DNA of 64,000 nt. Source: an uncultured bacterium (GTDB lineage: Bacteria > Fidelibacterota > Marinisomatia > Marinisomatales > UBA1611). The DNA lies in NCBI GenBank assembly GCA_964525185.1, contig CAZGFQ010000001.1, positions 29,486 to 93,485 of the forward strand, given 5' to 3'. This document shows, one piece after another, positions 1,778 to 24,595 of this stretch. Made by a program: the position numbers and the translations under genes. Numbering within the stretch: position 1 is the stretch's first letter; each line of letters begins with the position of its first letter. The notes beneath the pieces are model-generated. The model worked only from the letters and a program-made list of their open reading frames with translations, did no database searches and was not told the DNA's origin.

Positions 1778-2929
1778 TTAAAAGAAAAACTGTGTTTCAA
1801 AATAAATTTGATCTTCATTGTCTGCATCATAAATATCCAAATTTGGCGCAGTACGGTAACGGTAAAAAATGGATGCTTGAAGATATTGGATAGGAAATAA
1901 TTCTAAACCAAAAGTCCAACGATCTCTTTCCTCAGTTGTCCACTTTGTCATCGGGTCCCAATGATCCCATGAAATTTTTAAATTCACTCCCTGGTAAAGG
2001 CGTGTATCAAGTGATAAATAAGTCATGGATTGGTCACCCACTTCATCATGTTTACCAAAATCACTCACTCCACTTCCATCTATATCTTTTTTCTGAAACA
2101 AATTTTTCTCAAACATCCATGTAAAAATCCCGTGGTTTCCACCAGCCAAAATTCCTGATACATATTCCGTTTGTTCATCGCCTTTATTAAATGAGAAAGA
2201 ACCACCAAATCTGAATCTTCTAAAAACCATAGAGCCTATTGTTGTAATTTGTTTATCAACAGCAGATGCATTTTGTCCATTTCCAACCGCTGTTATTAGA
2301 CTAAATGGACCTGGTTCAATACCAATTTCATATGCTGCTTCTTGTTTTCCATAAGAATTGAATCCTGTTTTCTGACGGATATATGATCCATCACCACCAT
2401 CATCTAATAATCGAAGACCAAAGGGCATCATAACTCTTCCAAATTTGATGTAACTATTTAGGGGCAAATTATAAACCATAGCAAATGCTTCACGATTAGC
2501 AGCTCCTGGAGCAAAATTTTCATCGATGTAAAATAACATGCGATCTGGTACTGCAGAAATTTCGAGATAAACATTTGCTTCAGGCATTGTAATTGAATTG
2601 TTATATCGCGGATCACCATCTTGACCAACTATATTTCGTGTCGAATCAGTTCCAATAATTGTTTTATTGGCTACACGAAAATTTGTCCCAATAGAAAAAT
2701 ATTCATTTATCATATTAGTGAACATGCCACTTTTACTTTTCGATTTAGCTTGAAAAGTTGGAAGGTTAGTTTGAGAATAAACAAAACCAAACCCCGTTCT
2801 TTTTCCGCCACCCGTTTTATTGACATGACATTGAGAGCATTTATACCCGGTTCTAACAGCTATATATGGTTCTGCTGATAAATTAGAAATTCCGATAAGA
2901 ATTATTGCAAGTATGATTAATTTTTTCAT
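1778..2929 (-). CDS. Fused monohaem cytochrome-porin, Cyc2-like architecture
   Basis: A signal peptide is followed by a single CSQCH at residues 31-35 (…YKCSQCHVNKTGGGKRTGFG). The remaining ~330 aa show alternating-hydrophobic beta-strand patterns and the protein ends in aromatic ...YFETQFFF, typical of outer-membrane barrels. The assignment is by architecture only. Confidence 0.55.
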   Translation of the reverse strand: MKKLIILAIILIGISNLSAEPYIAVRTGYKCSQCHVNKTGGGKRTGFGFVYSQTNLPTFQAKSKSKSGMFTNMINEYFSIGTNFRVANKTIIGTDSTRNIVGQDGDPRYNNSITMPEANVYLEISAVPDRMLFYIDENFAPGAANREAFAMVYNLPLNSYIKFGRVMMPFGLRLLDDGGDGSYIRQKTGFNSYGKQEAAYEIGIEPGPFSLITAVGNGQNASAVDKQITTIGSMVFRRFRFGGSFSFNKGDEQTEYVSGILAGGNHGIFTWMFEKNLFQKKDIDGSGVSDFGKHDEVGDQSMTYLSLDTRLYQGVNLKISWDHWDPMTKWTTEERDRWTFGLELFPIQYLQASIFYRYRTAPNLDIYDADNEDQIYFETQFFF

Positions 2930-3721
2930 TTATTCCGGAGCTCCAATTAGTACCCAAGTTTTAATTTGTTCTATTCTTTTGTTAGACAGGAAAGGGGGAC
3001 CATCTCGAGGCATTCTATCACCTTCTATATCTACACCAACCACTTTTTTTACGAGGTAACTCACATTTGGATACCATGGGTTGACTCTCAATAATTCGGG
3101 TACTTCAAATGCGGCATAATCCACTAATTGTTCATACGCCACTTCTTTTGTATTTAATAATAATTCGCCTGCCCCACTAGATGTGAGATGGCATGAACAA
3201 TTTTTATCAATAATATCATCATATACTATATCCCATGCGGATTCATCACTTATATCTAACGTATTGGAGAATGAACCAGTAGAATCAGGGTTTTCTAAAC
3301 TATTCCAAATGAAATCAACTTGTCCAGATGAACCATTTTCTCCATCAAATTCAATCCAAACTACAATTGAATCAGAACCTAATATTTCATCCCCAGAAGA
3401 AATGCCTTCAACCGATTCAATATTTCCTGTTAGAGTGATATCATTAATTGATAATGCTTCTGTCCCTGTATTTTTTAGGACAGTAACAACTTTTAATTCA
3501 TCACTACCTTCTTTAAATGGGATATCACTTAAGGATGTTAATGATATATCTAAGTGGCCAGCTTGGGGAACGAATGGTGTGCCATCAGGTTTAAGTTCAG
3601 AACCATCTCCCGCAAAAGATATTCCCATGGGGTCTCTCCAATCATCACCGCCACAGGAAATACATAATAATGCAATCATGAAAAGAGATATAATATTAAT
3701 TATTCTTAAGTCATTTTTCAT
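2930..3721 (-). CDS. Lipoprotein with C-terminal PSCyt1-like cytochrome domain carrying CSCH (CXCH) instead of CXXCH
   Basis: The signal/lipobox-like N-terminus is LFMIALLCISCGG. The C-terminal ...NCSCHLTSSGAGELLLNT...GDRMPRDGPPFLSNKRIEQIKTWVLIGAPE matches the remembered PSCyt1 pattern (C..CH...L.L...MP...L....I..WI..GA). A 4-nt ATGA overlap links it to the upstream gene, and it directly abuts the downstream gene. Confidence 0.7.
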   Translation of the reverse strand: MKNDLRIINIISLFMIALLCISCGGDDWRDPMGISFAGDGSELKPDGTPFVPQAGHLDISLTSLSDIPFKEGSDELKVVTVLKNTGTEALSINDITLTGNIESVEGISSGDEILGSDSIVVWIEFDGENGSSGQVDFIWNSLENPDSTGSFSNTLDISDESAWDIVYDDIIDKNCSCHLTSSGAGELLLNTKEVAYEQLVDYAAFEVPELLRVNPWYPNVSYLVKKVVGVDIEGDRMPRDGPPFLSNKRIEQIKTWVLIGAPE

Positions 3722-4638
3722 TGTGTTAACTCATAATCTTTTTTAAATAATTTGTAAATCAAGCTTTCCTTTTCACGTTGATCTAAGACATAATAGACAA
3801 GAGCCCATTTTCTCATTTGAAAATAAGTGTACATATCTTCTTCAGATTTATTATAAAGTTCATCCCCAGTAATTGACTTCTTAGCCCATGAGTCAAAAGC
3901 TTTAATATCGTCTTCCGAATACACAGCTTCTAAGTTGCTATAATCTCCAACAATATCTTCTCGAGCAAATCCAAAAATATCATCATCATATCCTGGCATG
4001 GGCGTCCCAGTCAATCCAGTTGAAAAAGTTCGATAAACATCAATTGGATCACTTCCTCCCTTAAAAGGATCGTGAGCAAAATCAGGAGGTACTATTGGAT
4101 TTCCCCAATCATTGACTAACTCATCAGATGTTGGTCCATCAGCATTCCCCTCTGGGCCATGACAGCTGAAACATTCCATGAGACGATATACCATTTGTCC
4201 ATCCTGAACTAATTCATCCGTTTTTTCTGGTACGACTGATGGAAGTTTTACTTCAGGAGCAGGTGTTTGAATAGTGAACTTTTCTGCAAAAGTTTTAATA
4301 TAGGATGTAACGTCAGCAACATCCTGTTCATTTAATATATTCTCCCAAGCGGGCATAGAAGTTCTAGTTACGCCATTTCGAATTGTTTTATGGATATTTT
4401 CATCTGTTGGAAGCGATCCTGATGGTGTCGTTCTAAAAAGGTATTTCCCTTTTGTAAAGTCTCGTGGAAGGGGAGATAGAACTATTGCAGCTGGACCATT
4501 TCCATTACCCGACATGCCATGGCACCCACTACAATTTGATTGGTATATTAATTTACCTTTATTTATATCGGGTAAATTATTTGCATTTCCAATGGTAATG
4601 AATATGGCAAATATTGAAATTATTTTAAATTTTTCCAT
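3718..4638 (-). CDS. Periplasmic dihaem class-I c-type cytochrome
   Basis: It has a signal peptide and two class-I modules: CSGCHGMSGNGNGPAA...TSMPAW and CFSCHGPEGNADGP...GTPMPGY. Confidence 0.85.
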   Translation of the reverse strand: MEKFKIISIFAIFITIGNANNLPDINKGKLIYQSNCSGCHGMSGNGNGPAAIVLSPLPRDFTKGKYLFRTTPSGSLPTDENIHKTIRNGVTRTSMPAWENILNEQDVADVTSYIKTFAEKFTIQTPAPEVKLPSVVPEKTDELVQDGQMVYRLMECFSCHGPEGNADGPTSDELVNDWGNPIVPPDFAHDPFKGGSDPIDVYRTFSTGLTGTPMPGYDDDIFGFAREDIVGDYSNLEAVYSEDDIKAFDSWAKKSITGDELYNKSEEDMYTYFQMRKWALVYYVLDQREKESLIYKLFKKDYELTQ

Positions 4639-5050
4639 TCGATCCTTTCAATGCTAATTCTTTAAAAGAAACATTACTTAGTATTTGATTGATTTCATTT
4701 TCAACTCGGTGCATCACATTTTGAAGTGGCTTACATTGATGTTGCCTACCACAATCTTCAAAATTCGTATCTTGACAATCAATCATATGCATTTCTCCTT
4801 CAAAAACCTCAATGACGGATTTCAACGATATATCACTGGGTGATTTAAGCAACTTATATCCACCATGAGTTCCTCGTATAGATTCCACAATATTATTTTT
4901 TACGAGTTGTTGTAAAATTTTGGAAAGGAACTCTTCTGGGAGATTTAATGCATCAGCAATTTCATGTTTGCTTTTTAAGTATCCTTTTGGATTAGAAGCG
5001 AAAAAACTCACCACTAATATGCCATAGTCACATGCTTTACTAATACCCAT
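4625..5050 (-). CDS. Rrf2-family transcriptional regulator (IscR/NsrR-like, three-Cys cluster motif)
   Basis: MGISKACDYGILVV...HEIADALNLPEEFLSKILQQLVKNNIVESIRGTHGGYKL is a typical Rrf2 wHTH. The CQDTNFEDCGRQHQC motif (C-x7-C-x5-C) suggests Fe-S binding. I prefer the ATG at 5050 over the track start at 5101 because Rrf2 proteins begin at this helix. A 14-nt overlap links it to the downstream cytochrome gene. Confidence 0.85.
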   Translation of the reverse strand: MGISKACDYGILVVSFFASNPKGYLKSKHEIADALNLPEEFLSKILQQLVKNNIVESIRGTHGGYKLLKSPSDISLKSVIEVFEGEMHMIDCQDTNFEDCGRQHQCKPLQNVMHRVENEINQILSNVSFKELALKGSNGKI

Positions 5051-5135
5051 AAATGTTTCTTTATTACTCCTTGATTCGTATAATGGACAAAATGAGTCCA
5101 CTTTCGATAAGAAAATATAGAAACTGAATATTAAA

Positions 5136-5630: not shown

Positions 5631-7163
5631 CTAAAAACGATATGTCAACCCAAAATAGCCAAAAGACCTTGTATAATCTGCATCTTTTGAATAATCAATA
5701 CTTGTATACATGTTTAAATATTTACCTATTTTTTTTGAAATACTGATAGAGAATGTATGCTGTGTAAAATCATTCCAATTATTTCCGAACCCAAAAGTAT
5801 ATATTTCATAATCAGCATTAAAAAAACCATTTCTCAAAATGGGCTTGGAAATACCCCATTTATTTTGGAAACCTTTTAACAATTGATTTTGAATCATAAT
5901 ACTATTCCAATCAATCGATAAGCCATTTTGCGTTGGGTTAGTTCTATAATTGAATGAACGTACAGAAGAATATTGATCTGTCCCAGATTCTCTTCTGAAA
6001 TTGGATCCTAATTGAAGGATGCCCCAACGTTTTGTTTGTACTTTGAAGGCGTTATACCATCCATTTTTTAATTCGGACTGAAATAAAGAATCTGGCACTA
6101 AAATTTGAGATTGTTGATAAATAATTTGTTGGCGAGATGTATACCGAGATCGAAAAGTTATTTTTCGGGTTAATTTAATTTTAAGTGAAAATTGTGAAAA
6201 TGTTGATTCAAGTATTTCTCTGTTATAAACAGGATTATTTCTGTAAAAATCGAATGTTTGATACAATTTGACGGATAATTGATTTATGGGAGAATAGGAC
6301 ATTTTTGAATAGATGAATTCACGATCAATATCTGATCCAGCGTATTGCCCAACAAAAGCAATGCTACCTGTAAAATGGTGTTTCGGAAATTTGACTTTTG
6401 AAAAAAGTCCTAATTTTTTTATGTTTGTATTGAATTGGTACGATTCTGGATCTGGTTGAAGTCCACCCAAACCACCAATAATAATATTTTTCATGAGCGG
6501 GGATGTTGCTAATAAACCATCTGTGGCACCAATGCCTGAAAGTTCTGATGCAAAAACTCTCCCCAATTGAAAGAATGGTCCTTTATTTTTTATACCAAAA
6601 CTTGCTCGAGCTTGGTAAAGGGTAAATTGTTGATTTTGTAAATTGCTTCTTCCATAAATACCTATTTTAAAATGTTTTAGAGCTGGAGCACTTAATCCAT
6701 ATTGCAATGTTCCAATTCCTGATTGTTCTGAGACTCCGTCGGGAAGCGATTGAATTGTGGACCGAATGGATAAATGCCCCGATTGATTCAATTTCAGTTT
6801 TTCTTTCTCAGGTTTTTGAGGTTGATTAGTGGCAGGAGCAATTGGACTATCTGGAATAATTACATTGGTTTTTTCAAATTGAACTCGATCACCTATTTGA
6901 ATGGATTCTATAGGAACAAGGGGGGAAGAGACGGATGAATTTTTAGCTGAATGGGTGATGACCAAATCGCCTATAATTTCTGATCGGCGGAAAAGTTGAA
7001 GTGTATCCCCTACAGAAACCCCCTGTGAAGTTCCAATATCACAATACACTTGGTCTGCTGTCAAGTAAGTGACTTTTCCCTGCCCCGTAATGATTTCCAT
7101 ATTCTGTCCAAAACCAATCGCTAACAGACATATAAAAAGATTCTTTTTTAAAATATTAATCAT
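5631..7163 (-). CDS. Outer-membrane beta-barrel protein (putative porin partner of the multihaem cytochromes)
   Basis: The preferred start is the ATG at 7163 (MINILKKNLFICLLAIGFGQ is signal-peptide-like), giving an 8-nt overlap with the upstream gene. The track start at 7277 would overlap it by 120 nt. The body has long alternating-hydrophobic segments and the terminus is ...YFGLTYRF. No family was recognised. Confidence 0.6.
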   Translation of the reverse strand: MINILKKNLFICLLAIGFGQNMEIITGQGKVTYLTADQVYCDIGTSQGVSVGDTLQLFRRSEIIGDLVITHSAKNSSVSSPLVPIESIQIGDRVQFEKTNVIIPDSPIAPATNQPQKPEKEKLKLNQSGHLSIRSTIQSLPDGVSEQSGIGTLQYGLSAPALKHFKIGIYGRSNLQNQQFTLYQARASFGIKNKGPFFQLGRVFASELSGIGATDGLLATSPLMKNIIIGGLGGLQPDPESYQFNTNIKKLGLFSKVKFPKHHFTGSIAFVGQYAGSDIDREFIYSKMSYSPINQLSVKLYQTFDFYRNNPVYNREILESTFSQFSLKIKLTRKITFRSRYTSRQQIIYQQSQILVPDSLFQSELKNGWYNAFKVQTKRWGILQLGSNFRRESGTDQYSSVRSFNYRTNPTQNGLSIDWNSIMIQNQLLKGFQNKWGISKPILRNGFFNADYEIYTFGFGNNWNDFTQHTFSISISKKIGKYLNMYTSIDYSKDADYTRSFGYFGLTYRF

Positions 7164-7962
7164 GTTCACTCCCTGATGGGTGGCATTGATAACAAGCATT
7201 AGAATTATAAATATATCCCGATTCATCATCATGTTCATCGTCCATTTTACTTTGACGATGATCATGGCATACCCCATTTAAACCACAGGAAAATTCAGTG
7301 TAATCATTGGGATTAATATGACATTCTGCCGTGCAGGAAGTCCACTCATTTCGATGCTTTCCATTATATATAGGAAATAAAATATCATGATGTGACATAT
7401 CAATGGGTGACCAGGACCATGTGTTATGGCAAAGAATACAATCGGTATTATCAGGATGATTTCCAGCAATAATACTTTCTGATATTTCGGATTGATGGCA
7501 ACCATCACAATCCGTAGGCAACCAAGATGACCAGTTTTGTGAATTGGTTTGATGGCATTGGTTGCACAAGAGTGATTGATGCATTCCTGCCAATGGGAAT
7601 AGAGTCAATTCATGGTTGAAACCGGAAACAGACGTTTCCCAACTAATGGGAGAATGACATCGCTCGCAATCTAATCCATTTGCTTCTTGATGAATATCGA
7701 AATGGCAGTCACTACATTCAGTTGATTGATTTGAAAATTGATGTTTTTCTTCAACTGTATTTCCAATATGACATTGAATGCAATCAGCAAATTTATGTTG
7801 CCCTAACAATGTATATCGTGTTGTATTATGGTTAAAAAGTGGCTCATGAGATAAAGGTAGCCATGATTGTTCTCCATGGCAATCTGAACAGTCCATTGTT
7901 GTAATAATTTGATTTTGACTTAAACCAATAGTCAGTGTTAGCGTAATCATAATCCAAATCAT
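7156..7962 (-). CDS. Multihaem c-type cytochrome, 8 CXXCH + 1 CX3CH
   Basis: By manual count the motifs are CSDCH, CIQCH, CSDCH, CERCH, CNQCH, CDGCH, CILCH and CYQCH, plus CTAECH. It has a signal peptide and a 4-nt ATGA overlap with the upstream gene. Its N- and C-terminal modules are paralogous to those of the 925-aa cytochrome. Confidence 0.9.
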   Translation of the reverse strand: MIWIMITLTLTIGLSQNQIITTMDCSDCHGEQSWLPLSHEPLFNHNTTRYTLLGQHKFADCIQCHIGNTVEEKHQFSNQSTECSDCHFDIHQEANGLDCERCHSPISWETSVSGFNHELTLFPLAGMHQSLLCNQCHQTNSQNWSSWLPTDCDGCHQSEISESIIAGNHPDNTDCILCHNTWSWSPIDMSHHDILFPIYNGKHRNEWTSCTAECHINPNDYTEFSCGLNGVCHDHRQSKMDDEHDDESGYIYNSNACYQCHPSGSEHD

Positions 7963-10736
7963 TTGAATATTGGTTTATTATATTTCTTTTGTTTTTTAAT
8001 CCAAAAACGTAATAAATCACCGTCATCTCCATCATCTTCACTTCCATTCGGATGACAATTATAGCAGGCAGAACTTTCATAAACATAATCCGATTCTTCG
8101 TCATGTTCATCATCCATTTCACTTTGATCATGGTCGTGACAAACACCGTTTAACCCACACGAAAAATCCGTATAATCATCTGGATTGACATGACATTCCG
8201 CCTCGCAGCTGGTCCATTCATCCTCGTGTTCTCCTGAATAAATGGGGAAGTAATCCCCATCATGATCAAAGGTCACATCATCCCAATCCTCCGTGGTATG
8301 GCAGGCTTCGCAATTGGTGGGATCCCCATCATTATGCTCTTCATAAAAATCTTCCATATGACAAGATGCACACCCCTCGGTAATAGATGAATGATTAAAA
8401 TCGACGTCTTCCCAATCTGATGTTGAAGTATGGCATTGTTCACATTCGGTTGGGAATCCATCATCATGTTCTTCTTCAAAATCCGCCATGTGGCAATCTG
8501 CACATCCTGTTGTGATGTTGGTATGTTCAAAGGTTGCTCCTTCCCATGTATCTGTTCCTGTATGGCAATTTTCACATGTTTCAGAAAAACCTTGTCCAGT
8601 TGTATGGGGCGGATTTGACGCATTTTGGTAATCCACAAAATGGCAGGTGGCGCAAGGCGCACTCAAAGTATGAGCATAAATATCAGGCGACCAACCTAAA
8701 GGATTATGACATTCTTCACAAATATCAACAGAATATCCATAAACACTATGGTCAGGATCAGTTGTTTCATTAAAATCGGATAAGTGACATTGGCCATCCT
8801 GACATGAATTTGGTGTATTATTAATAATATTATTGATGTGACAATCATTACAGTCAGTCGTTAAATGTAATCCAAACAGAATAAAAGATGTTTGATCTTC
8901 TGTATGGGGAAACGGATCAATAATCCATTCCGAGGAATTGGGGTGGCAGAGCGCACAATCTGTGCTAATATTATTATTGCCATGGATTGGATCAGTACTA
9001 TTTTCATGTTCCGGAGTATGACATTCTTGACAATTTGTTTCTGTGAAATTGACATGATCAAAAATCAATTCTTCCCAAGATTGATCCGCATGGCATAACG
9101 CACAATTGTTGTTTATATTATGAGATGTATGGTTATAATCTGACGTTGTGGAATTGGTTGTAGCCAACCCACCATCAATATGGCATCCAGAGCAGTCTGA
9201 TGGTAAATCAAAATTTCCAACATCATGGCATTGTTCACAATCGATTAAAGCGTGGGCTCCACCAAGAGGAAAGTCTGTTAAGGAATGGTCAAATTCTGCC
9301 CCTTCCCATGTTTCAGTTGAATGGCACACTTCACAATTTTGACTATATTGGTCATCTGAATGAGATGGAGAATCAGGATAAACAGATGTGCCTGTTTCAT
9401 TAAAATCTTGCTCGTGACAAGACCAACAGTCGTTGGGTGTATTATTGTATATTTCATTTACATGACAGGATTCGCAATTAGTAGTAAGGTGTGCACCTGT
9501 CAAAAGATAATCTGTTTGTGAGACTGTATGGGTGAAGGGCGAAATAGTCCACGATTCTGTTGTGGCATGACATACTTCACAATCGGGACTGATATTTCCA
9601 TCAGCATGTGGTGGGTTGATGGAATTGATTTGTTCGGGAATATGGCAGGATTTGCAATCCGTATTGGTAAAATTGATATGATTAAAAATAAGTTCAGCCC
9701 AATGTGATCCCACGTGGCAGTTTTCACAGGTTTCATTGATTTGATGTGACTCATGATCATAGTCCGATTGGAGAGAATTTGTCGAAGCTAATCCGCCATC
9801 AACATGGCACCCAGCACAATCCATTGGAAGATCATAATTCCCGTCGCCGTGACATTGGTTACAGGTAATTGTATTATGCGCATCTAGAAGTGGGAATTCC
9901 GTTTCATTATGATCAAAAACTGCACCTTTCCATGTGCTCGTTGAATGGCATGCTAAACAATCTTGAGAATACCCAGCTTCAATATGACTTGGAGCATCAG
10001 GGAAAACGGATGTTCCTGTTTCGATAAATTCTGTTTCATGGCAGGACCAACAATTTTCCGGAAAATCATATGTTCCCCCCGAATGACATTTAGCACATGG
10101 GGTAGATTTATGGGCTCCATCTAAAATAAAATCTGAAACTAATTCATGGACAAACGTAGATGGTGTCCAAGATGATTGACTCGTTGAATGGCATTCTTCA
10201 CAGTCAGTATTTAGTCTTGATTCGATGTGAGCTGGATTTGTGGAACGATCATAATCAAGCCGATGACAATCATAACAATCAGTCGGGGTCAAATCAAAGT
10301 TTGTCATAGGTGTTTCTGTGTGGCATTCCCGACATAGTGTTTGTTTATGAGAGCCTAATAATGAAAATTGTGTTAATTCATGATTAAATGTCTTAGTTGT
10401 GACTTGCCAGGAATCATTTCCATGACATTGAGCGCAGTCATTTCCTAACTTATTTTTATGTACATCCAGATGGCATGATGAACATTCATTTTCATCTAGA
10501 CTAAATTGATGCTTTTCAGCCACGGTATTTCCTTGGTGGCAAGATGCGCAATCTTGAATACGATGACTCCCTTGCAATGGGAAATTGGTTATTGAGTGGG
10601 AGAACCCTTTTAAACTCAATGTAGTCCAATCATCTCCGCCATGACAATCGCTACATTCAAGCCCAGCCACATTGAGTTCTTGATTCTGAGCAGAAATAGT
10701 CCATTGCAATAGCATGATTAAAAAGAACCTTTTCAT
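7959..10736 (-). CDS. Giant multihaem c-type cytochrome, 32 CXXCH + CX4CH + CX3CH
   Basis: It has a signal peptide (MKRFFLIMLLQWTISAQ). By manual count there are 32 canonical CXXCH motifs, plus CQDGQCH (residue 645) and CEAECH (residue 844). F.H..T.F.L.G.H....C..CH units recur throughout, and a 4-nt ATGA overlap is present at both ends. Confidence 0.9.
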   Translation of the reverse strand: MKRFFLIMLLQWTISAQNQELNVAGLECSDCHGGDDWTTLSLKGFSHSITNFPLQGSHRIQDCASCHQGNTVAEKHQFSLDENECSSCHLDVHKNKLGNDCAQCHGNDSWQVTTKTFNHELTQFSLLGSHKQTLCRECHTETPMTNFDLTPTDCYDCHRLDYDRSTNPAHIESRLNTDCEECHSTSQSSWTPSTFVHELVSDFILDGAHKSTPCAKCHSGGTYDFPENCWSCHETEFIETGTSVFPDAPSHIEAGYSQDCLACHSTSTWKGAVFDHNETEFPLLDAHNTITCNQCHGDGNYDLPMDCAGCHVDGGLASTNSLQSDYDHESHQINETCENCHVGSHWAELIFNHINFTNTDCKSCHIPEQINSINPPHADGNISPDCEVCHATTESWTISPFTHTVSQTDYLLTGAHLTTNCESCHVNEIYNNTPNDCWSCHEQDFNETGTSVYPDSPSHSDDQYSQNCEVCHSTETWEGAEFDHSLTDFPLGGAHALIDCEQCHDVGNFDLPSDCSGCHIDGGLATTNSTTSDYNHTSHNINNNCALCHADQSWEELIFDHVNFTETNCQECHTPEHENSTDPIHGNNNISTDCALCHPNSSEWIIDPFPHTEDQTSFILFGLHLTTDCNDCHINNIINNTPNSCQDGQCHLSDFNETTDPDHSVYGYSVDICEECHNPLGWSPDIYAHTLSAPCATCHFVDYQNASNPPHTTGQGFSETCENCHTGTDTWEGATFEHTNITTGCADCHMADFEEEHDDGFPTECEQCHTSTSDWEDVDFNHSSITEGCASCHMEDFYEEHNDGDPTNCEACHTTEDWDDVTFDHDGDYFPIYSGEHEDEWTSCEAECHVNPDDYTDFSCGLNGVCHDHDQSEMDDEHDEESDYVYESSACYNCHPNGSEDDGDDGDLLRFWIKKQKKYNKPIFK
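8805..10052 (-). repeat. In-frame tandem duplication (2 x ~208 codons, 8 CXXCH each) inside the 925-aa cytochrome gene
   Basis: Residues 229-436 (CWSCHETEFIETGTSVFPDAPSH...) align colinearly with residues 437-644 (CWSCHEQDFNETGTSVYPDSPSH...). A third, truncated copy starts at residue 645 with CQDGQCHLSDFNETTDPDH. Confidence 0.8.
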
Positions 10737-12139
10737 CGGATATCACCCGTGAGTTTGTGACAATCAACGCACCGGCTTGGGATAGGTTGATAGCGCGTAA
10801 ATATTCCCACCTCATCTCGTTCAGTTGGGTGGCAATCTTGACAAGGAACATTTTGATGTTTTCTGTCTAAAGGGAATTGGGTTGAATCGTGTTGAAATTC
10901 TATAGTATTAAATGATGCTGATATGTGGCAAGATTCACATGTATTATTGTAATGAATCGCAAATTGATTTCGGTGTTCATCTTTATGACAAATTTTGCAT
11001 TCCGGGTTTTCCCATGTAAACTGAATTTGTGATTTTCCCGATTTTGTCTGGTAGGGTTTATGACATTGATTGCACGGAACTGCCATATGCCCACCATCCA
11101 ATACAAAACGCGAAATAAGGTGCATAGAAAAAGTAAATGTGGTTGGTTTAAATCCATTTACGGTATGACATGCAGCACAATCGCCTCCATCTTGTCTTCG
11201 GGTAAATTGTCCTTCATGATAATCGGCATGGCACGCTTGACAAGAAAGGTATAAGGGGAGAGTACCTGCTAAAGTTTGGTTATGGCAATCCATGCATTTC
11301 ACATTTGCATGTTTTCCGTCCAATGGGTATTTCGTTTTGGAATGATCAAAAGATTTTGTTTTTTTCCAATTTTCTGTGATGTGGCAGGATTCACATTTAT
11401 TCCCGTAACTGCCTTTGTGATAATCAGTATGGCATGAAGTACAGGATTCAAAATCGATTCCGGTAAGTTGCTGAACGGGTGGATTCCAATCTAAATGTTT
11501 TGTATGACATTTTTCGCAATCCACTTTTTTATGGGCTCCAGTCAGATGAAATTGAGAATTTTTATGATTAAAAGATTTGGATGCATCGGTCCAATTATTC
11601 ACATTATGACATGATTGACAATCAGATCCAACTTCACCTTTATGAATGTCACTATGGCAACTTTGGCAATCTTGAGATAAACCTAAAAAAGTGCGATCTA
11701 ATACAGGGAATGTGGTATTTTCATTTGCCCATTTGATGATAGGTTCCCAGACAATATTTTCTGCAGAGTGACATTCTCCACATTTAACTTTTCTATGTTT
11801 ACCTTCTAATCGATATCCCGTTTCATTATGGTCAAATTTGGCCATATTTTTTGGCCAAAATACCAATTCAAATTCTTTTCCATTATGATCGGAGTGGCAT
11901 AGACCACAATCTTTTTTTCGATCATCCCGATGATAACCCTTGTTTTGGTCCATCTTAATTTTCAAAGGTGTATGGCATTTTACACAGCCATCTGAAATTT
12001 CTTTTTTACCCAACTCATGACATTGGACGCAATTGGAGGTGCCTTCCAAATCCGCGTGGTATTTGGATAAAGGTCCAGGGGAAAATTGACTAAATATTAC
12101 CGATGTCATCATCATGAATTGAAGGATCAGTTTTTTCAT
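10733..12139 (-). CDS. Multihaem c-type cytochrome, 17 CXXCH
   Basis: The count of 17 CXXCH motifs is manual. The ATG at 12139 gives a signal peptide (MKKLILQFMMMTSVIFSQ), whereas the track start at 12166 is a TTG. Confidence 0.9.
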   Translation of the reverse strand: MKKLILQFMMMTSVIFSQFSPGPLSKYHADLEGTSNCVQCHELGKKEISDGCVKCHTPLKIKMDQNKGYHRDDRKKDCGLCHSDHNGKEFELVFWPKNMAKFDHNETGYRLEGKHRKVKCGECHSAENIVWEPIIKWANENTTFPVLDRTFLGLSQDCQSCHSDIHKGEVGSDCQSCHNVNNWTDASKSFNHKNSQFHLTGAHKKVDCEKCHTKHLDWNPPVQQLTGIDFESCTSCHTDYHKGSYGNKCESCHITENWKKTKSFDHSKTKYPLDGKHANVKCMDCHNQTLAGTLPLYLSCQACHADYHEGQFTRRQDGGDCAACHTVNGFKPTTFTFSMHLISRFVLDGGHMAVPCNQCHKPYQTKSGKSQIQFTWENPECKICHKDEHRNQFAIHYNNTCESCHISASFNTIEFQHDSTQFPLDRKHQNVPCQDCHPTERDEVGIFTRYQPIPSRCVDCHKLTGDIR

Positions 12140-12172: not shown

Positions 12173-13039
12173 TTAACCATAACTCTCATGCGTGATTTGC
12201 TTTTTCTCAATCCCCAAGCCATCCAGAGAAAGCAAGACAGATTCCAAAAATCTGGGGGCAGGGGCAATTCCTTCTTTTCGTGCAGAGATCTTTTCATATT
12301 TTGATATACCCGGACCGCACAAATAAATCTGTGGGTGGTCCATTTTAGCCAATTCTCGTTCAATCCGTTCAGGGGTGATTCTGCCTGTTTGATAGGGAAG
12401 ATTAAATCCATCCGGTTCTTCACGAGTGAATAAAAAATCAACCGTTAATTGATCAGGGAATTCCATTTGTAAATCGATCAATTGTTTTCCAAAAATGGTA
12501 TTGTTCCAAGATTGATTGCTATAAACCAAGGTGTGTTTGATATCCGGGTAAAATTTTAAGGCATATTTTAATATACTATAATTGGGGACAATACCACTTC
12601 CTGCACAAATGTGTAGAATTTCGCTGGGCAAGGGTTCATTTTTTGGCAATGTGTAAGGTCCCGTAAATCCGGTCACTATCATTTTTGAACCTTTGTGCGT
12701 TCTTTTCGCAAGGATTGGAGAAAGGAGAGGCGGATACTTGGATTTTCCCGGATAATACATTTCTTCTTTGATGGTAATAGCCAGATATTTTTCATCTGGA
12801 GAACTGGATAAAGAATAAGCTCTCGGACTTTCCTTTTTACCTTTTTTATCTTCCAAAAAAGCCGTCCATCTTTCCAATGCTACAAATTGATGGGGATCAA
12901 TGGTCAAAAAATGCCCTGGTTCATAATCCAATAAATCATTCCCGGTAAACAGAATTAATGTTGTTGTATCAGGCGTCTCTTCGATTACATCTGCGACCAT
13001 GATTTCAAGTTTTTTTATTTTTTTACGATTTGTGCTCAT
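12173..13039 (-). CDS. Ferredoxin-NADP reductase-like FAD/NAD(P)-binding oxidoreductase
   Basis: It carries RAYSLSS (the RxYS FAD motif), the ICAGSGIVP nucleotide-binding motif and LCGPG near the C-terminus. There is no signal peptide. Confidence 0.8.
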   Translation of the reverse strand: MSTNRKKIKKLEIMVADVIEETPDTTTLILFTGNDLLDYEPGHFLTIDPHQFVALERWTAFLEDKKGKKESPRAYSLSSSPDEKYLAITIKEEMYYPGKSKYPPLLSPILAKRTHKGSKMIVTGFTGPYTLPKNEPLPSEILHICAGSGIVPNYSILKYALKFYPDIKHTLVYSNQSWNNTIFGKQLIDLQMEFPDQLTVDFLFTREEPDGFNLPYQTGRITPERIERELAKMDHPQIYLCGPGISKYEKISARKEGIAPAPRFLESVLLSLDGLGIEKKQITHESYG

Positions 13040-13077: not shown

Positions 13078-14391
13078 CTAAGCCTTTGCTTCAACTTTTT
13101 TCCCAAATTCAATCCCGATAGAATTAAGCAGAGGAAAGGGTAATTCACCACCGGCGAATATAAATGTATAATCATTTTCTAATTCAACGGAAGAATCGGG
13201 AGTTTGCAAGGTGACTGTGGTGTTCGTAATTTTTTTTGGATTAGAATTTAAAACAGCTTTCAATAATCCATTTGAAATTGCTTCTTCAATATGGGATTCA
13301 TTTCTCGCTTTCAGGCGAAAGAAATTTTCCTTCCGATAAGAAATGGTTACCTCATTCCCCTCCTGATGGGCAAGTCCCAGAGCAGCTTCAATGGCACTAT
13401 CTCCACCGCCAACGACTAAAAGTTTTTTATGTTTATAGGTTTCTGCATCAATGAGCTTATACATCACTTTCCCTAATTCTTCTCCTGGAATGCCTAATTT
13501 CCTAGGAGTTCCTCTTCTGCCCAAAGCTAACACGACTCTGGAAGCCGAGGCGGGGCCAGAAGATGTTTCTATCGTAAAATTCCCTTGTTCGCCTGCAATT
13601 CCTTTCAATTGATGATTTGAAAGTAATCGAACTTTTTGTTCTCGGATAACTTTTTCCCAAATTGCCAATAAATCTTCTTTTTCATATTCGCCTTTTTCCA
13701 AAGCGCCAAATAAAGGTAATTCTACTGGCTGAACCAATACCAACTTTCTTCTTGGATATTGCAAGATGGTTCCACCGGGTTGATCCTGATCCAATACTAA
13801 ATAATTGAGGCCCAATTCCTTAGCTCGCAATCCTGCGGACAACCCAGCAGGCCCTGCACCAATAATGACTACATCAAATTCAGCTTTTGAACTTTCATCC
13901 TTATTGCGATGTATATGATCCACAGCCGTAACGCCATGGCTGATGGCATTTTTAATTAAGGCTAAACCGCTCAATTCACCAATAATATAGAGCCCTGGAA
14001 TATTGGTTTCAAAATCGTCCGATAATTGAGGAATATCTTCTCGTTGACTGATATCTCCTAATCCAATTTCAATCCCAGAAACCGGACACGCTTCAGCGCA
14101 TTTTCCATGTCCTACACAATGGCTGCCGTGAATGATAGTTGCTTTCCCGTCAATCAATCCCAAGACTGTACCTTCTGGACACGCATCCACGCAAATACCA
14201 CACCCAATACATAGCGATTGATTTATGATCGGATGTTGTAACAAAGCTTTATCTTGTCTTTTTGCGCGGGTTTCCTCGAGTCGTTTTCGGGTAAGAGCGT
14301 CCTTTTTTTTCATGGTTTGAATGTAGGGAATCAAAAAAATAAGGATAATCATAATGCCGATTCCCCATGAGAGTAATAATTCTGTATTCAT
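13078..14391 (-). CDS. Membrane-anchored Fe-S flavoprotein (ferredoxin domain + FAD/NAD(P) pyridine-nucleotide-disulfide-oxidoreductase-like domain)
   Basis: It has an N-terminal TM helix, CIGCGICVDACP, and CVGHGKCAEACP (His in place of the second Cys), followed by DVVIIGAGPAGLSAGLRA and LLVVGGGDSAIEAA dinucleotide folds. The ATG at 14391 overlaps the upstream stop by 1 nt; the track start at 14403 is a GTG. Confidence 0.8.
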   Translation of the reverse strand: MNTELLLSWGIGIMIILIFLIPYIQTMKKKDALTRKRLEETRAKRQDKALLQHPIINQSLCIGCGICVDACPEGTVLGLIDGKATIIHGSHCVGHGKCAEACPVSGIEIGLGDISQREDIPQLSDDFETNIPGLYIIGELSGLALIKNAISHGVTAVDHIHRNKDESSKAEFDVVIIGAGPAGLSAGLRAKELGLNYLVLDQDQPGGTILQYPRRKLVLVQPVELPLFGALEKGEYEKEDLLAIWEKVIREQKVRLLSNHQLKGIAGEQGNFTIETSSGPASASRVVLALGRRGTPRKLGIPGEELGKVMYKLIDAETYKHKKLLVVGGGDSAIEAALGLAHQEGNEVTISYRKENFFRLKARNESHIEEAISNGLLKAVLNSNPKKITNTTVTLQTPDSSVELENDYTFIFAGGELPFPLLNSIGIEFGKKVEAKA

Positions 14392-15257
14392 CAAAACACC
14401 CACGTATAACCCATGGCAACGACCACGGTAACATGAATAATCATGATAACAATCATCGTGTATGCAAATGGCTTATGAATCACATGCCAATAATGAAAAA
14501 GAGAATGGGCTGCAGACCAAAATGCAATTTGTCGATCCATTTTAACAATTTGACGTAAAGAATGCTTAAAAGATTTCATATCGGAATCTGAAACAGAAGC
14601 GGATGATTGAATATCTTTTTTAATTTTTTGCCATTTGAACCAACCGGTAATATCCATAAAAAGGATAGTAAAAATGCCCCATAACCCTCTTTTTTCAATT
14701 TGATCTGCACCAGATAAATCTCGGATGTGGTTAATGGTTTGGTTAGAAATACTAAATTTATTTTGAAAAGTTTGAATGATGTTCGAGAGATTGTCTTTGA
14801 ATTCATCTCTTGTTAATTCTTTCCCACTGACACGATGAGGAATCTTGATATAGATATAACGTCCGATAAATCCACTGGAAGCCACAGCTACCATGGACCA
14901 ATAAGAGATAGAAACCAAACCACCAAATTTAAAAGCTGTATGAAAGGTGACGAGAATAGGTCCAGCTATTCCGAGAAAAATATGATAATTAAGCCATGTA
15001 GGCAATTTGCCCCATTTCTTAAAAATTCCAACACGCTTTCTCAGGGAATACGCAAACATAATGATCATCATTAAACTACCTGCAATTCCAAGTCCATGAC
15101 CAATAAATCCACCTGGTTTCCACGCGCGATGAAGAGCAATTCGGGGACGATCAATCATGGATGCACCATAATAGTCCCCCGCCGTCAGTAAAATCCACAC
15201 AACAAACCCAAAGGTTATGAATGAAAAAAAGGTAATGATATATCGATGGATATTCAT
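14391..15257 (-). CDS. Six-TM membrane protein with two H-x13-H pairs (candidate dihaem-b, ferric-reductase/NOX-like transmembrane domain)
   Basis: One TM helix reads YHIFLGIAGPILVTFH and the last reads HKPFAYTMIVIMIIH, each with two His exactly 13 residues apart. The preceding LRKRVGIFKKWGKLPTWLNYHIFLG resembles the ferric-reductase domain motif. A loop of ~100 aa separates TM4 and TM5. Confidence 0.55.
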   Translation of the reverse strand: MNIHRYIITFFSFITFGFVVWILLTAGDYYGASMIDRPRIALHRAWKPGGFIGHGLGIAGSLMMIIMFAYSLRKRVGIFKKWGKLPTWLNYHIFLGIAGPILVTFHTAFKFGGLVSISYWSMVAVASSGFIGRYIYIKIPHRVSGKELTRDEFKDNLSNIIQTFQNKFSISNQTINHIRDLSGADQIEKRGLWGIFTILFMDITGWFKWQKIKKDIQSSASVSDSDMKSFKHSLRQIVKMDRQIAFWSAAHSLFHYWHVIHKPFAYTMIVIMIIHVTVVVAMGYTWVF

Positions 15258-15369: not shown

Positions 15370-16059
15370 TTGGAGCAGTTTGTGCACATTCTCATCATAG
15401 AAGATGAATCTTTTATTGGCGAACATATAAAATCGTCTTTGATAGATCGTGGGTTTTCCTGTAAATGGTTTCAGAATGGGGAAGATGGATTAGAGTCCGC
15501 TGTAGTGGATTCTTATGATTGTATTATTCTGGATAGACGCCTTCCAGATATGGAAGGGTTGGATATTTGCAAAGAAATTCGATATCAAGGCATCAGTACC
15601 CCCATTATTATGTTAACAGCAATGGCGGATATTGACCAAAAAGTGGAGGGGTTGAATGCTGGAGCGGATGATTATATGACTAAACCCTTTTCTGCCGATG
15701 AATTGATTGCACGGTTAAATGCCGTTGTACGTCGAATTACATTCCAAAAAAAACCAATACTTCAATTATCGAATGTAGAATTAAATCCATTAAAACGAAC
15801 TGTAAAAGTGGATGGCAAATTGATTACAATGTCAAATCGAGAATTTATATTATTACAATATTTAATGCACCATGGAGGAAAACCATTAACACGGAGTCAA
15901 ATATTTGATCATGTATGGGGTGATTCCGGAGGTTCCGAATCTAATGTAGTTGATGTATATATAAATTACATTCGTAAAAAAATTGATATAAATCCAAAAA
16001 TGGATTCGCACATTATTACAATGAGAGGATATGGGTATAGGTTCAATGAAGATGCCTAA
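15370..16059 (+). CDS. OmpR-family response regulator
   Basis: A receiver domain (ILIIEDE...ILDRRLPDMEGL...TA..D) is followed by a winged-helix output (LSNREFILLQYLM...VWG...NVVDVYINYIRKKI...TMRGYGYRF). The track start is a TTG, and an in-frame GTG at 15382 is an alternative. Confidence 0.9.
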   Translation: MEQFVHILIIEDESFIGEHIKSSLIDRGFSCKWFQNGEDGLESAVVDSYDCIILDRRLPDMEGLDICKEIRYQGISTPIIMLTAMADIDQKVEGLNAGADDYMTKPFSADELIARLNAVVRRITFQKKPILQLSNVELNPLKRTVKVDGKLITMSNREFILLQYLMHHGGKPLTRSQIFDHVWGDSGGSESNVVDVYINYIRKKIDINPKMDSHIITMRGYGYRFNEDA

Positions 16060-18067: not shown

Positions 18068-18111
18068 TTATTATTTATCCTTTAAATAAGAAGGCGGGAA
18101 TTTCGAATAAA

Positions 18112-22085: not shown

Positions 22086-22093
22086 ATGTCACT

Positions 22094-23212: not shown

Positions 23213-23233
23213 AAGAAACCTCGTAATTTGAGT

Positions 23234-24025: not shown

Positions 24026-24043
24026 ATTGCTTTAGAATTCCTA

Positions 24044-24592: not shown

Positions 24593-24595
24593 AAT

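What the first reader, a model, noticed from the sequence alone, without database searches (positions are those of the whole stretch)
7959..10736. 925-aa cytochrome with 32 CXXCH plus CX4CH and CX3CH motifs, built by tandem duplication of a 208-residue, 8-haem block
Seen: my manual count gives 32 canonical CXXCH, about one per 29 residues. Residues 229-436 and 437-644 align colinearly, each starting CWSCHE..F.ETGTSV.PD.PSH and each containing 8 motifs. A third copy begins at residue 645, but there CWSCH is replaced by CQDGQCH (CX4CH). Near the C-terminus CEAECH (CX3CH) and CGLNGVCH occur.

Established: cytochromes with more than 30 haems exist (for example in Geobacter relatives and methanotrophic archaea) but are uncommon. 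CX3CH/CX4CH sites usually need dedicated or tolerant maturation systems.

Inference: this is a recently expanded, wire-like periplasm-spanning or extracellular cytochrome.
Basis: partly seen in the sequence, partly recalled or inferred. Interest (0 to 1): 0.65.

Follow-up and report, generated by a model that had tools for sequence, protein, structure and literature searches.

The report
35-haem cytochrome of a porin-cytochrome operon
The gene really encodes a 925-residue protein with 35 likely haem-binding sites, but it is an old, conserved member of a large, already described kind of giant cytochrome that sits in outer-membrane electron-conduit operons, here in a marine Marinimicrobia bacterium; only its odd haem-site spacings are new.

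Summary
ORF 7959-10736 (minus strand) encodes 925 aa with 32 CXXCH, one CX4CH, one CX3CH and one CX5CH; all 70 cysteines lie in these 35 motifs. Residues 229-436 and 437-644 align without gaps at 59% identity.

"Recently expanded" is not supported. The blocks share only 62% DNA identity. Each is closer to its counterpart in another Marinimicrobia protein (69-71%) than to its sister, and a Black Sea MAG carries the same 925-aa gene under purifying selection. An assembly artefact is excluded.

The gene lies in a conserved operon:
- an inner-membrane protein with the 2x WX3HX13H + SGXXG motifs defined for PCC3/PCC4 clusters
- an FeS-flavoprotein
- an FNR-like protein
- a 17-haem cytochrome
- this cytochrome
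- a 268-aa paralogue lacking the blocks
- a roughly 22-strand outer-membrane barrel

More than 3,500 relatives exist, with up to 64 motifs. It is therefore a new member of a known kind.

The odd motifs sit where paralogous units have CXXCH, so they are probably true haem sites. CX5CH was not found in the paper library searched. Wire geometry, location and electron direction remain inferred, because the AlphaFold model was poor.

The parts
7959..10736 (-). Gene for the 925-aa multihaem c-type cytochrome (35 candidate haem sites)
   Evidence: ORF list. Motif count. Pfam Cytochrome_C7 99 bits, Cytochrom_CIII 77 bits, Cytochrom_c3_2 64 bits and MtrC/MtrF domain II/IV 50 bits, all above their cut-offs.
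10686..10736 (-). Predicted Sec signal peptide (MKRFFLIMLLQWTISA|Q). No lipobox Cys and no Tat motif.
   Evidence: Read from the sequence. The first Cys is residue 28, inside a CXXCH. No signal-peptide predictor was available.
10053..10676 (-). N-terminal diverged 8-haem block (residues 21-228)
   Evidence: 8 CXXCH. About 30% identical to block A, score 212 against shuffle maximum 54. Similar motif spacing. 39% identical to the N-terminal part of the 268-aa paralogue.
9429..10052 (-). Repeat block A (residues 229-436, 8 CXXCH)
   Evidence: Gap-free 59% identity to block B. Orthologous to block 1 of P0002 at 69%.
8805..9428 (-). Repeat block B (residues 437-644, 8 CXXCH)
   Evidence: 71% to block 2 of P0002.
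8265..8804 (-). Array of four ~45-residue dihaem units (residues 645-824). The first opens with CX4CH.
   Evidence: Alignment of the units. Motif positions.
8784..8804 (-). CX4CH site CQDGQCH (residues 645-651)
   Evidence: C645, C650 and H651 are invariant in 26 aligned relatives. It aligns with CXXCH of paralogous units, with a 2-residue insertion.
8043..8264 (-). C-terminal ~72-residue trihaem module (FPIYSGEH ... CEAECH ... CGLNGVCH ... CYNCHPNG)
   Evidence: The module is found in 611 representative proteins, up to 25 copies per protein. In most copies all three sites are CXXCH. It is 58% identical to the C-terminus of the 268-aa paralogue.
8190..8207 (-). CX3CH site CEAECH (residues 844-849)
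   Evidence: Invariant C844, C848 and H849. It is site 1 of the module, which is CXXCH in 133 of 141 modules.
8136..8159 (-). CX5CH site CGLNGVCH (residues 860-867)
   Evidence: At least 90% conserved. It is site 2 of the module, with spacing CX2CH 122, CX3CH 3, CX4CH 7 and CX5CH 9. The distal-His pattern is retained.
7962..8042 (-). Conserved C-terminal tail: an acidic run followed by a basic/aromatic stretch (…DDGDDGDLLRFWIKKQKKYNKPIFK)
   Evidence: Tails of the same type occur in P0002, P0003, P0027, P0065, P0007 and P0008. Function unknown.
7156..7962 (-). 268-aa paralogue: N-module plus C-terminal trihaem module, without the repeat blocks (8 CXXCH + CTAECH + CGLNGVCH). Its start overlaps the stop of the 925-aa gene by 4 nt.
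   Evidence: A 266-aa counterpart is present in L002 and a 268-aa one in L005.
10733..12139 (-). 468-aa cytochrome with 17 CXXCH and a signal peptide. Its stop overlaps the start of the 925-aa gene by 4 nt.
   Evidence: Conserved upstream neighbour in L001-L005.
5631..7163 (-). Outer-membrane beta-barrel protein (510 aa, ends ...GLTYRF, pI 9.65): an N-terminal ~80-aa beta domain plus about 22 strands
   Evidence: AlphaFold2 model, pLDDT 77. Foldseek hits only to outer-membrane barrels, E down to 3e-9. The family has 23 members, all Marinimicrobia, Fidelibacterota or FCB group.
14391..15257 (-). 288-aa inner-membrane protein with two WX3HX13H motifs (residues 88, 257) and SGXXG (128): a predicted di-haem b transmembrane electron carrier
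   Evidence: The motifs are kept in 119 of 120 homologues. They are the defining motifs of the PCC3/PCC4 inner-membrane protein in PMC5566968.
13078..14391 (-). Membrane-anchored protein with a 2x[4Fe-4S] ferredoxin domain and an FAD/NAD(P) oxidoreductase domain (one N-terminal TM helix, basic stretch after it)
   Evidence: Pfam Fer4_10 and Pyr_redox_3 (1e-42). TM helix. Adjacent to the inner-membrane protein in all six loci examined.
12173..13039 (-). FNR-like NAD-binding oxidoreductase (288 aa)
   Evidence: Pfam NAD_binding_1. NCBIfam partial matches to PaaE, flavohaemoprotein and NADH oxidoreductase. Present in L001 and L005; L002 has a 170-aa ORF without a Pfam hit in this position; absent in L003 and L004.

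Best explanation
The 925-aa protein is the large multihaem c-type cytochrome of a conserved PCC3-like porin-cytochrome operon in a marine Marinimicrobia (Neomarinimicrobiota) bacterium.

After Sec export it is expected to carry up to 35 bis-His haems in a modular chain:
- three 8-haem blocks, of which the first is diverged and the other two are an ancient tandem duplicate
- four dihaem units
- a C-terminal trihaem module

The CX4CH, CX3CH and CX5CH sites are loop-expanded versions of ordinary CXXCH sites, not a different kind of site.

The inferred role is a long intramolecular haem wire. It would connect an inner-membrane module (di-haem b protein plus cytoplasm-facing FeS-flavoprotein), through the 17-haem cytochrome, to a ~22-strand outer-membrane barrel and the cell exterior. 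Electron export to insoluble or extracellular acceptors is the more likely direction.

The number of 208-residue blocks (1, 2 or 3 among relatives) sets the length of the wire.

Shown: the motifs, the repeat, its age, conservation, the operon composition and the motifs of the inner-membrane protein.

Inferred: haem occupancy, linear geometry, cellular location and the direction of electron flow.
For: Motifs and ligands:
- All 70 Cys lie in 35 CX(2-5)CH motifs, with 40 further His and only 7 Met.
- In the 85%-identical orthologue (L005) all 70 Cys and 74 of 75 His are kept, there are no indels, and 266 synonymous against 141 non-synonymous codon differences.

Family:
- Pfam class III / c7 matches lie above their cut-offs.
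- The profile search against PDB gives HmcA 1z1n (1.7e-10) and GSU1996 3ov0 (4.9e-9) as best hits.

Operon:
- 4-nt overlaps at both gene junctions.
- The same gene order occurs in L001, L002, L003 and L005 (Marinimicrobia) and, for the core, in L004 (Ignavibacteria, Stygiobacter).
- The inner-membrane protein has 2x WX3HX13H + SGXXG (119/120 homologues), as defined for PCC3/PCC4 (PMC5566968).
- The downstream protein models as an outer-membrane barrel.
- PCC3 large cytochromes are described with a median of 34 haem motifs, internal repeats and a low residue-to-haem ratio. Here the ratio is 26.4 residues per site.

Non-canonical sites:
- CX4CH aligns with CXXCH of paralogous units.
- CX3CH and CX5CH occupy sites 1 and 2 of a trihaem module that is CXXCH in 122 of 141 copies, with intermediate spacings present and the distal His retained.

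Age of the duplication.
Against: - No structure supports the linear wire: the AlphaFold2 model has pLDDT 51 and pTM 0.23.
- There is no lipobox, no T9SS C-terminal domain and no other surface-sorting signal, so an extracellular location is unproven.
- Homology to the proteobacterial PCC3 proteins was not tested; the match rests on defining features only.
- The barrel family is small and lineage-restricted (23 proteins) and resembles only generic barrels, so a cytochrome-sheathing role is assumed.
- The neighbouring Cyc2-like gene and class I cytochrome c could point to electron uptake rather than export.
- Haem attachment at CX5CH has no precedent in the paper library searched.
Confidence: 0.7

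Rival explanations
1. The duplication is recent, or is an assembly expansion artefact. This covers the first reader's 'recently expanded' and its own refutation scenario.
For: Exact 208-residue register without gaps. In another metagenome protein (P0006) two blocks are nearly identical, so recent duplications or artefacts do occur in this family.
Against: - The blocks share 62% DNA identity, and only 64 of 123 identical residues use the same codon.
- TRF finds no tandem repeat, and the repeat finder finds no long near-identical repeat inside the gene.
- Orthologous block pairs (69-71%) are closer than sister blocks (59%).
- The same 925-aa architecture appears in an independent Black Sea MAG, and an identical protein on another ENA scaffold.
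Confidence: 0.02
2. The protein is a purely periplasmic cytochrome: an electron store (capacitor) or a periplasm-spanning relay that never enters or crosses the outer membrane. In this reading the barrel only admits a soluble substrate or hosts the small 268-aa cytochrome.
For: - Only a Sec signal peptide; no lipobox or surface-sorting domain.
- All three cytochromes look periplasmic, as in the PCC4 type, which has a porin and three periplasmic cytochromes (PMC5566968).
- A capacitor role has been proposed for such proteins (PMC9900912; PMC7399161).
Against: - In five of the six loci a ~500-570-aa ORF with no Pfam hit follows the cytochrome genes: the window, L002, L003, L004 and L005 (L001 ends before that position). 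Only the window's copy was modelled as a barrel.
- 35 haems is far more than is needed for a soluble shuttle.
- This rival differs from the best explanation only in topology, which the data cannot resolve.
Confidence: 0.2
3. The conduit works inward. It takes electrons from extracellular Fe(II), Mn(II) or reduced minerals and feeds them to the respiratory chain, as proposed for PCC3 in iron oxidisers.
For: - PCC3 was discovered in Fe(II) oxidisers.
- The window carries a Cyc2-like monohaem porin candidate (1778-2929) and a class I cytochrome c (3718-4638) a few kb away.
- It also carries a Rieske/cytochrome b operon and haem A/O synthesis genes, suggesting aerobic respiration.
Against: - The inner-membrane protein is always followed by a cytoplasm-facing FeS-flavoprotein, plus an FNR-like NAD-binding protein in some loci.
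- Electron flow from outside to NAD(P)+ would be uphill and against the membrane potential. This is an inference from bioenergetics, not tested here.
- The Cyc2-like identity is unverified: no family match.
Confidence: 0.3
4. The CX3CH, CX4CH and especially CX5CH motifs do not bind haem. They could be a disulfide, a metal site, or degenerate former sites, so the protein would have 32 haems.
For: - CX5CH is not among the described haem-binding spacings (list in PMC11492766; no hit for the term).
- The variant module no longer matches any Pfam cytochrome model.
Against: - Cys, Cys and His are all invariant or at least 90% conserved, and unchanged in L005.
- The sites are positionally homologous to canonical sites, with a graded series of spacings 2, 3, 4 and 5.
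- The matching distal His residues are retained.
- A degenerate site would be expected to lose residues.
Confidence: 0.2

Closest known systems
PCC3 porin-cytochrome c gene clusters (He et al. 2017, PMC5566968; Gallionellaceae survey PMC9900912)
   Same: - An outer-membrane barrel gene.
- A very large cytochrome (median 34 motifs in PCC3, 35 here) with internal repeats and a low residue-to-haem ratio.
- A second cytochrome of about 20 haems (17 here).
- A ~300-aa inner-membrane protein with two WX3HX13H motifs and SGXXG.
- Haem number varies among close relatives.
   Different: - Described in Proteobacteria; sequence homology to those proteins was not tested here.
- This FCB-group version always has a membrane-anchored FeS-flavoprotein next to the inner-membrane protein. 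PCC4 subgroup II has an FeS protein there.
- Marinimicrobia add an FNR-like protein and a third, small paralogous cytochrome.
- The large cytochrome has no recognisable surface-sorting signal.
Large multihaem cytochromes next to porins in Ignavibacteria and Burkholderiales (Arbour et al. 2020, PMC7399161)
   Same: - Homologous family: Ignavibacteria proteins are among the hits, and L004 (Stygiobacter) has the same core operon.
- 33-49 motifs, about 25 residues per haem, and variable motif number between close relatives.
   Different: - Ignavibacteria and Bacteroidota members are built from ~73-residue trihaem repeats and have only CXXCH, up to 64 of them.
- The Marinimicrobia subfamily has the 208-residue 8-haem block and the CX4CH / CX3CH / CX5CH sites.
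Geobacter sulfurreducens GSU1996 (PDB 3OV0) and Desulfovibrio HmcA (PDB 1Z1N, 1GWS)
   Same: They are the best solved-structure relatives by profile search (E 4.9e-9 and 1.7e-10). They are polymers of class III (c3/c7-type) haem domains; Pfam Cytochrome_C7 matches six stretches here.
   Different: - Those proteins have 12 and 16 haems, against 35 sites here.
- From my own knowledge, GSU1996 domains contain a His-Met haem. Here there are only 7 Met and no periodic one.
- No direct phmmer hit.
- Different partners: HmcA belongs to a sulfate-reducer membrane complex.
MtrCAB / MtoAB decahaem porin-cytochrome complexes
   Same: The same general logic: cytochromes plus an outer-membrane barrel forming a trans-outer-membrane conduit.
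   Different: - The DmsE/MtrA family model scores 50 bits against a cut-off of 192.
- No MtrB-like match for the barrel.
- No lipoprotein MtrC equivalent.

Membership tests
Multihaem c-type cytochrome, class III (c3/c7-type) polymers | Multiple CXXCH haem-attachment motifs with matching distal His ligands | tested here: met
   32 CXXCH plus 3 variants. 40 non-motif His for 35 sites. Non-motif His residues are conserved across 26 relatives.
Multihaem c-type cytochrome, class III (c3/c7-type) polymers | Match to curated class III / c7 profiles above the family cut-off | tested here: met
   PF14522 99.2 bits (cut-off 24.8), PF02085 76.6 (22.9), PF14537 64 (25).
Multihaem c-type cytochrome, class III (c3/c7-type) polymers | Export signal, since haem attachment occurs outside the cytoplasm | tested here: inconclusive
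   The N-terminus MKRFFLIMLLQWTISA|QNQ looks like a Sec signal peptide by eye. No predictor was available.
Multihaem c-type cytochrome, class III (c3/c7-type) polymers | Covalently bound haem at each motif | not testable with these tools
   Needs mass spectrometry or haem staining of the protein.
PCC3-type porin-cytochrome cluster (PMC5566968) | ~300-aa inner-membrane protein with two WX3HX13H motifs (TM3, TM5) and SGXXG (TM4) | tested here: met
   288 aa. WLNYHX13H at 88, WHVIHX13H at 257, SGFIG at 128. Kept in 119 of 120 homologues. A crude hydropathy scan finds four clear TM segments; a fifth at about 113-131 scores just under the threshold by my hand calculation on the sequence.
PCC3-type porin-cytochrome cluster (PMC5566968) | Outer-membrane beta-barrel gene in the cluster | tested here: met
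   AlphaFold2 model pLDDT 77 with about 22 strands. Foldseek probability 1.0 to outer-membrane barrels. C-terminal ...YRF.
PCC3-type porin-cytochrome cluster (PMC5566968) | Very large cytochrome with many motifs, internal repeats and a low residue-to-haem ratio, plus a second cytochrome of about 20 haems | tested here: met
   35 sites in 925 aa (26.4 residues per site) with a 208-residue repeat. The neighbour has 17 CXXCH.
PCC3-type porin-cytochrome cluster (PMC5566968) | Sequence homology to the proteobacterial PCC3 proteins (for example of Sideroxydans lithotrophicus ES-1) | not tested
   No reference sequences were at hand. Named hits are FCB group, Acidobacteria, Calditrichaeota and KSB1.
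PCC3-type porin-cytochrome cluster (PMC5566968) | Extracellular location of the large cytochrome | not testable with these tools
   No lipobox or T9SS domain was seen. Location needs experiment.
MtrA/DmsE decahaem family and MtrB porin | Score above the curated cut-off of TIGR03508, and an MtrB-like barrel | tested here: not met
   TIGR03508 50.2 bits against a cut-off of 192.2. The barrel has no Pfam or NCBIfam match.
Geobacter c7-domain polymers (GSU1996 type) | Repeated c7-type trihaem domains | tested here: met
   Cytochrome_C7 matches six stretches. The profile hits 3ov0 at E 4.9e-9. This is distant similarity only.
Geobacter c7-domain polymers (GSU1996 type) | One His-Met coordinated haem per domain (from my own knowledge of GSU1996) | tested here: not met
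   Only 7 Met (positions 1, 8, 144, 305, 750, 794, 874), not periodic.

The most novel reading that the evidence does not exclude
CGLNGVCH would be a genuine covalent haem site with a CX5CH spacing that has not been described, paired with a co-varying CX3CH site in a conserved terminal trihaem module. In addition, the operon would be a NOX-like, quinone-independent conduit: NAD(P)H to FAD to 2x[4Fe-4S] to di-haem b to 17-haem to 35-haem to barrel. That conduit would let abundant pelagic Marinimicrobia of marine redoxclines (Black Sea and similar waters) reduce particulate Mn/Fe oxides or other extracellular acceptors.
Probability: 0.2. Interest if true: 0.7.

Novelty: new member of a known kind. 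Interest (0 to 1): 0.42.

Why it matters
Giant porin-associated cytochromes are known from genome surveys but remain uncharacterised biochemically.

This example places a complete, conserved conduit operon in Marinimicrobia. The closest named genome is a Black Sea 150 m MAG. If the operon is active, it would link this phylum to extracellular Fe/Mn redox cycling at marine redoxclines.

The family also offers a natural series of one, two and three 8-haem blocks, plus a block-less paralogue next door. That series could be used to test how haem-chain length affects electron transfer.

The graded CX2/3/4/5CH series at one homologous site is a ready-made test of how much loop length the cytochrome c maturation machinery tolerates.

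Tried and rejected
- AlphaFold2 on the 925-aa protein with a 26-sequence alignment gave mean pLDDT 51 and pTM 0.23, and Foldseek found nothing. No geometric claim is made from it.
- Direct phmmer against PDB gave no hit. Only the profile search did.
- Promoter and terminator scans gave counts equal to the shuffles and are uninformative.
- Rfam found nothing in the window, so there is no rRNA for taxonomy.
- A six-frame search for a WWD haem-lyase motif in the window found nothing. The maturation system is therefore not encoded here, and the idea of a dedicated lyase could not be assessed.
- NCBIfam and Pfam have no specific model for the large cytochrome, the barrel, the inner-membrane protein or the C-terminal module.
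- The genome-contig scan returned a single locus, L005.
- Literature searches for Marinimicrobia plus multihaem cytochromes returned nothing relevant.
- Membership of the Mtr and Geobacter Pcc families was considered and rejected on family scores.
- An assembly artefact was considered and rejected.

Full report
**1. Observation**

The ORF at 7959..10736 lies on the minus strand and encodes 925 residues. A regex count gives 32 CXXCH, one CX4CH (CQDGQCH, residue 645), one CX3CH (CEAECH, 844) and one CX5CH (CGLNGVCH, 860). All 70 cysteines of the protein lie in these 35 motifs. There are 75 histidines, 40 of them outside the motifs, and only 7 methionines. That is enough for bis-His ligation of every site.

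Residues 229-436 and 437-644 align over 208 positions without a single gap, at 59% identity. The score is 758, against -4 ± 17 and a maximum of 54 for shuffled sequence. Each block has eight CXXCH.
- Residues 645-852 are not a third copy. They are 26-28% identical and need many gaps. They form an array of four ~45-residue dihaem units whose first unit resembles the unit that opens blocks A and B.
- Residues 21-228 are a diverged 8-haem block, about 30% identical to block A and with a similar motif spacing.

**2. Age of the duplication, and the artefact question**

At DNA level the two blocks are 62% identical. Third codon positions agree at 45%, against 32% expected from composition. Only 64 of the 123 identical residues use the same codon. 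TRF finds no tandem repeat, and the repeat finder finds only short matches at the 624-nt period.

In a tree of blocks from related proteins, block 1 of the window pairs with block 1 of P0002 (69%) and block 2 with block 2 (71%). P0002 is a Marinimicrobia MAG protein that is 65% identical overall. The duplication is therefore older than the split of those lineages.

The genome-contig scan found one locus, L005, from 'Candidatus Neomarinimicrobiota bacterium isolate BS150m-G42'. It has the same gene order and a 925-aa orthologue that is 84.8% identical, with no indel. All 70 Cys and 74 of 75 His are kept, and there are 266 synonymous against 141 non-synonymous codon differences. An identical protein also sits on an independent ENA scaffold. 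'Recently expanded' and 'assembly artefact' are both rejected.

Block number does vary in the subfamily:
- one block: P0065, P0007, P0008, P0004
- two blocks: the window, P0002, P0027, P0055
- three blocks: P0003, P0006

In P0006, two blocks are nearly identical.

**3. The block-less paralogue**

The next gene downstream (7156..7962, 268 aa) overlaps the stop of the large gene by 4 nt. It aligns with the N-terminal 218 residues of the large protein (39% identity) and with its C-terminal 117 residues (58%). It carries the same CTAECH and CGLNGVCH motifs. In effect it is the large cytochrome without the internal blocks. A counterpart is present in L002 (266 aa) and L005 (268 aa).

**4. The non-canonical motifs**

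C645/C650/H651 and C844/C848/H849 are invariant, and C860/C866/H867 are at least 90% conserved, in 26 aligned relatives.

The CX4CH aligns with the first CXXCH of the paralogous dihaem units, with a two-residue insertion.

An exhaustive HMMER search with residues 815-905 found 611 representative proteins (E ≤ 1e-3). In many of them this ~72-residue module is itself repeated, up to 25 times in one protein. Among 141 modules recognised by regex:
- Site 1 is CX2CH in 133 and CX3CH in 8.
- Site 2 is CX2CH in 122, CX3CH in 3, CX4CH in 7 and CX5CH in 9.
- Site 3 is always CX2CH.
- CX3CH at site 1 occurs only together with CX5CH at site 2.

The three non-motif His of the module are retained in the variant form. 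These sites are therefore loop-expanded homologues of ordinary haem sites, and most probably still bind haem.

CX3CH and CX4CH are listed as known haem-binding motifs in PMC11492766. CX5CH is not in that list, and the term gave no hit in the paper library. No curated Pfam or NCBIfam model is specific to the module. The window contains no recognisable haem-lyase gene.

**5. Family**

Pfam assigns class III / c7-type cytochrome families above their cut-offs, with six Cytochrome_C7 stretches. No NCBIfam model reaches its cut-off; the DmsE/MtrA model scores 50 against 192.

A direct search of PDB sequences finds nothing. A profile of 26 relatives finds the 16-haem HmcA (1z1n, 1.7e-10) and the dodecahaem GSU1996 (3ov0, 4.9e-9).

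The word-indexed protein search returned more than 3,500 relatives among the 8,000 candidates scored. They are 800-1,600 aa long. Those that carry a name are from Marinimicrobia/Fidelibacterota, Ignavibacteria, Bacteroidota and a few Acidobacteria and others. Many have 55-64 CXXCH built from ~73-residue units and lack the odd motifs. The 208-residue block and the CX3/4/5CH sites are confined to the Marinimicrobia subfamily. A 35-site cytochrome is therefore not exceptional in this family.

**6. Context**

All genes from 15257 down to 5631 are on the minus strand, with short or 4-nt overlaps. In order they encode:
- A 288-aa membrane protein with two WX3HX13H motifs and SGXXG. The motifs are conserved in 119 of 120 homologues.
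- A protein with one N-terminal TM helix, two [4Fe-4S] motifs and an FAD/NAD(P) oxidoreductase domain.
- An FNR-like NAD-binding protein.
- A 17-CXXCH cytochrome.
- The 925-aa cytochrome.
- The 268-aa paralogue.
- A 510-aa protein ending ...YRF. It models (pLDDT 77) as an N-terminal beta domain plus a barrel of about 22 strands, and matches only outer-membrane barrels in Foldseek.

The same order is found in L001, L002, L003 and L005. The core is also found in an Ignavibacteria genome, L004: membrane protein, FeS-flavoprotein, mid-size cytochrome, giant cytochrome and a ~540-aa protein without a Pfam hit.

The two-motif membrane protein, the barrel, a ~20-haem cytochrome and a ~34-haem repeat-rich cytochrome are exactly the features used to define 'PCC3' clusters in PMC5566968. 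There the membrane protein is interpreted as a di-haem b, ferric-reductase-like transmembrane carrier. Large, variable-length cytochromes next to porins have also been reported in Ignavibacteria and Burkholderiales (PMC7399161) and in Gallionellaceae (PMC9900912).

**7. Mechanism (inference)**

The protein is most likely a long intramolecular haem chain inside a trans-envelope conduit.

The basic stretch after the TM helix of the FeS-flavoprotein suggests that its redox domains face the cytoplasm. The flavoprotein is invariably adjacent to the di-haem b protein. Together these suggest a NOX/FRE-like route from NAD(P)H (or ferredoxin) across the inner membrane to the 17-haem cytochrome, then to the 35-site cytochrome and the barrel. 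Outward flow is favoured by the membrane potential.

The opposite direction (Fe(II) or Mn(II) oxidation) cannot be excluded. A Cyc2-like candidate and a class I cytochrome c lie nearby.

Whether the 925-aa protein spans the periplasm, threads the barrel or reaches the surface is unknown. It has only a Sec-type signal and a conserved acidic-then-basic C-terminal tail of unknown role. The large and small cytochromes are very acidic (pI 4.4 and 5.0) and the barrel is basic (pI 9.65). That would be compatible with docking but proves nothing.

**8. Verdict**

The protein is a new, uncharacterised member of a known kind (PCC3-like giant porin-associated multihaem cytochromes) in a phylum for which I found no such report.

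The new details are:
- the conserved CX5CH/CX3CH pair in a terminal trihaem module
- the natural series of 0, 1, 2 and 3 blocks
- the constant FeS-flavoprotein partner of the membrane protein

Noticed in passing
window 1778-2929 (-): A 383-aa ORF with a signal peptide, a single CXXCH near the N-terminus (YKCSQCH) and a C-terminal ...FETQFFF. This is the layout of a Cyc2-type fused monohaem cytochrome-porin (Fe(II) oxidase type). It has no Pfam or NCBIfam match. It is conserved in L005 (12596-13747).
   Followed up: partly
window 19089-25471 (-): A respiratory operon: HEAT-repeat protein, Rieske protein (with a RRGFF Tat-like motif), split cytochrome b (PetB-like 263 aa plus PetD-like 372 aa), and a 998-aa fusion cytochrome c. 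The fusion has 8 CXXCH with SoxX-like, cbb3-type and c7-like segments and an acidic tail.
   Followed up: partly
window 27363-29772 (+) and 17983-19038 (+): Haem A synthase (COX15/CtaA), haem O synthase (UbiA family) and a CusF-SCO1 fusion. These indicate an aerobic haem-copper oxidase pathway in the same organism.
   Followed up: partly
window 3718-4638 (-) and 440-1705 (-), 2930-3721 (-): A 306-aa protein with two CXXCH whose first ~120 residues match class I cytochrome c (cbb3 subunit III-like). A lipoprotein-like 421-aa protein with a Big_2 domain and 2 CXXCH. A 263-aa lipoprotein-like ORF without a family. All lie between the Cyc2-like gene and the Rrf2 regulator (4625-5101), and all are conserved in L005.
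   Followed up: partly
proteins P0264, P0265, P0266 (representative library): Proteins made almost entirely of the ~72-residue 'FPIYSG.H' trihaem module: up to 25 matched stretches in 1,885 aa. This is a repeat family with no dedicated curated model.
   Followed up: partly
protein P0006 (blocks 429-610 and 677-858): Two copies of the 8-haem block are nearly identical in this metagenome protein. This is either a truly recent duplication or an assembly artefact in that other record.
   Followed up: no
window 15370-17434 (+): An OmpR-type response regulator and a HAMP histidine kinase are divergently transcribed from the conduit operon. The same pair flanks the operon in L001, so it may regulate it.
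   Followed up: no
window 30299-34885 (-): A 1,528-aa ORF without CXXCH motifs. Not examined.
   Followed up: no
window 7844-8146, 8273-8662, 9500-9760 (-): ORFs of 86-129 aa in other frames inside the cytochrome genes. They are low-complexity, H/M/I/K-rich translations and almost certainly not genes.
   Followed up: no
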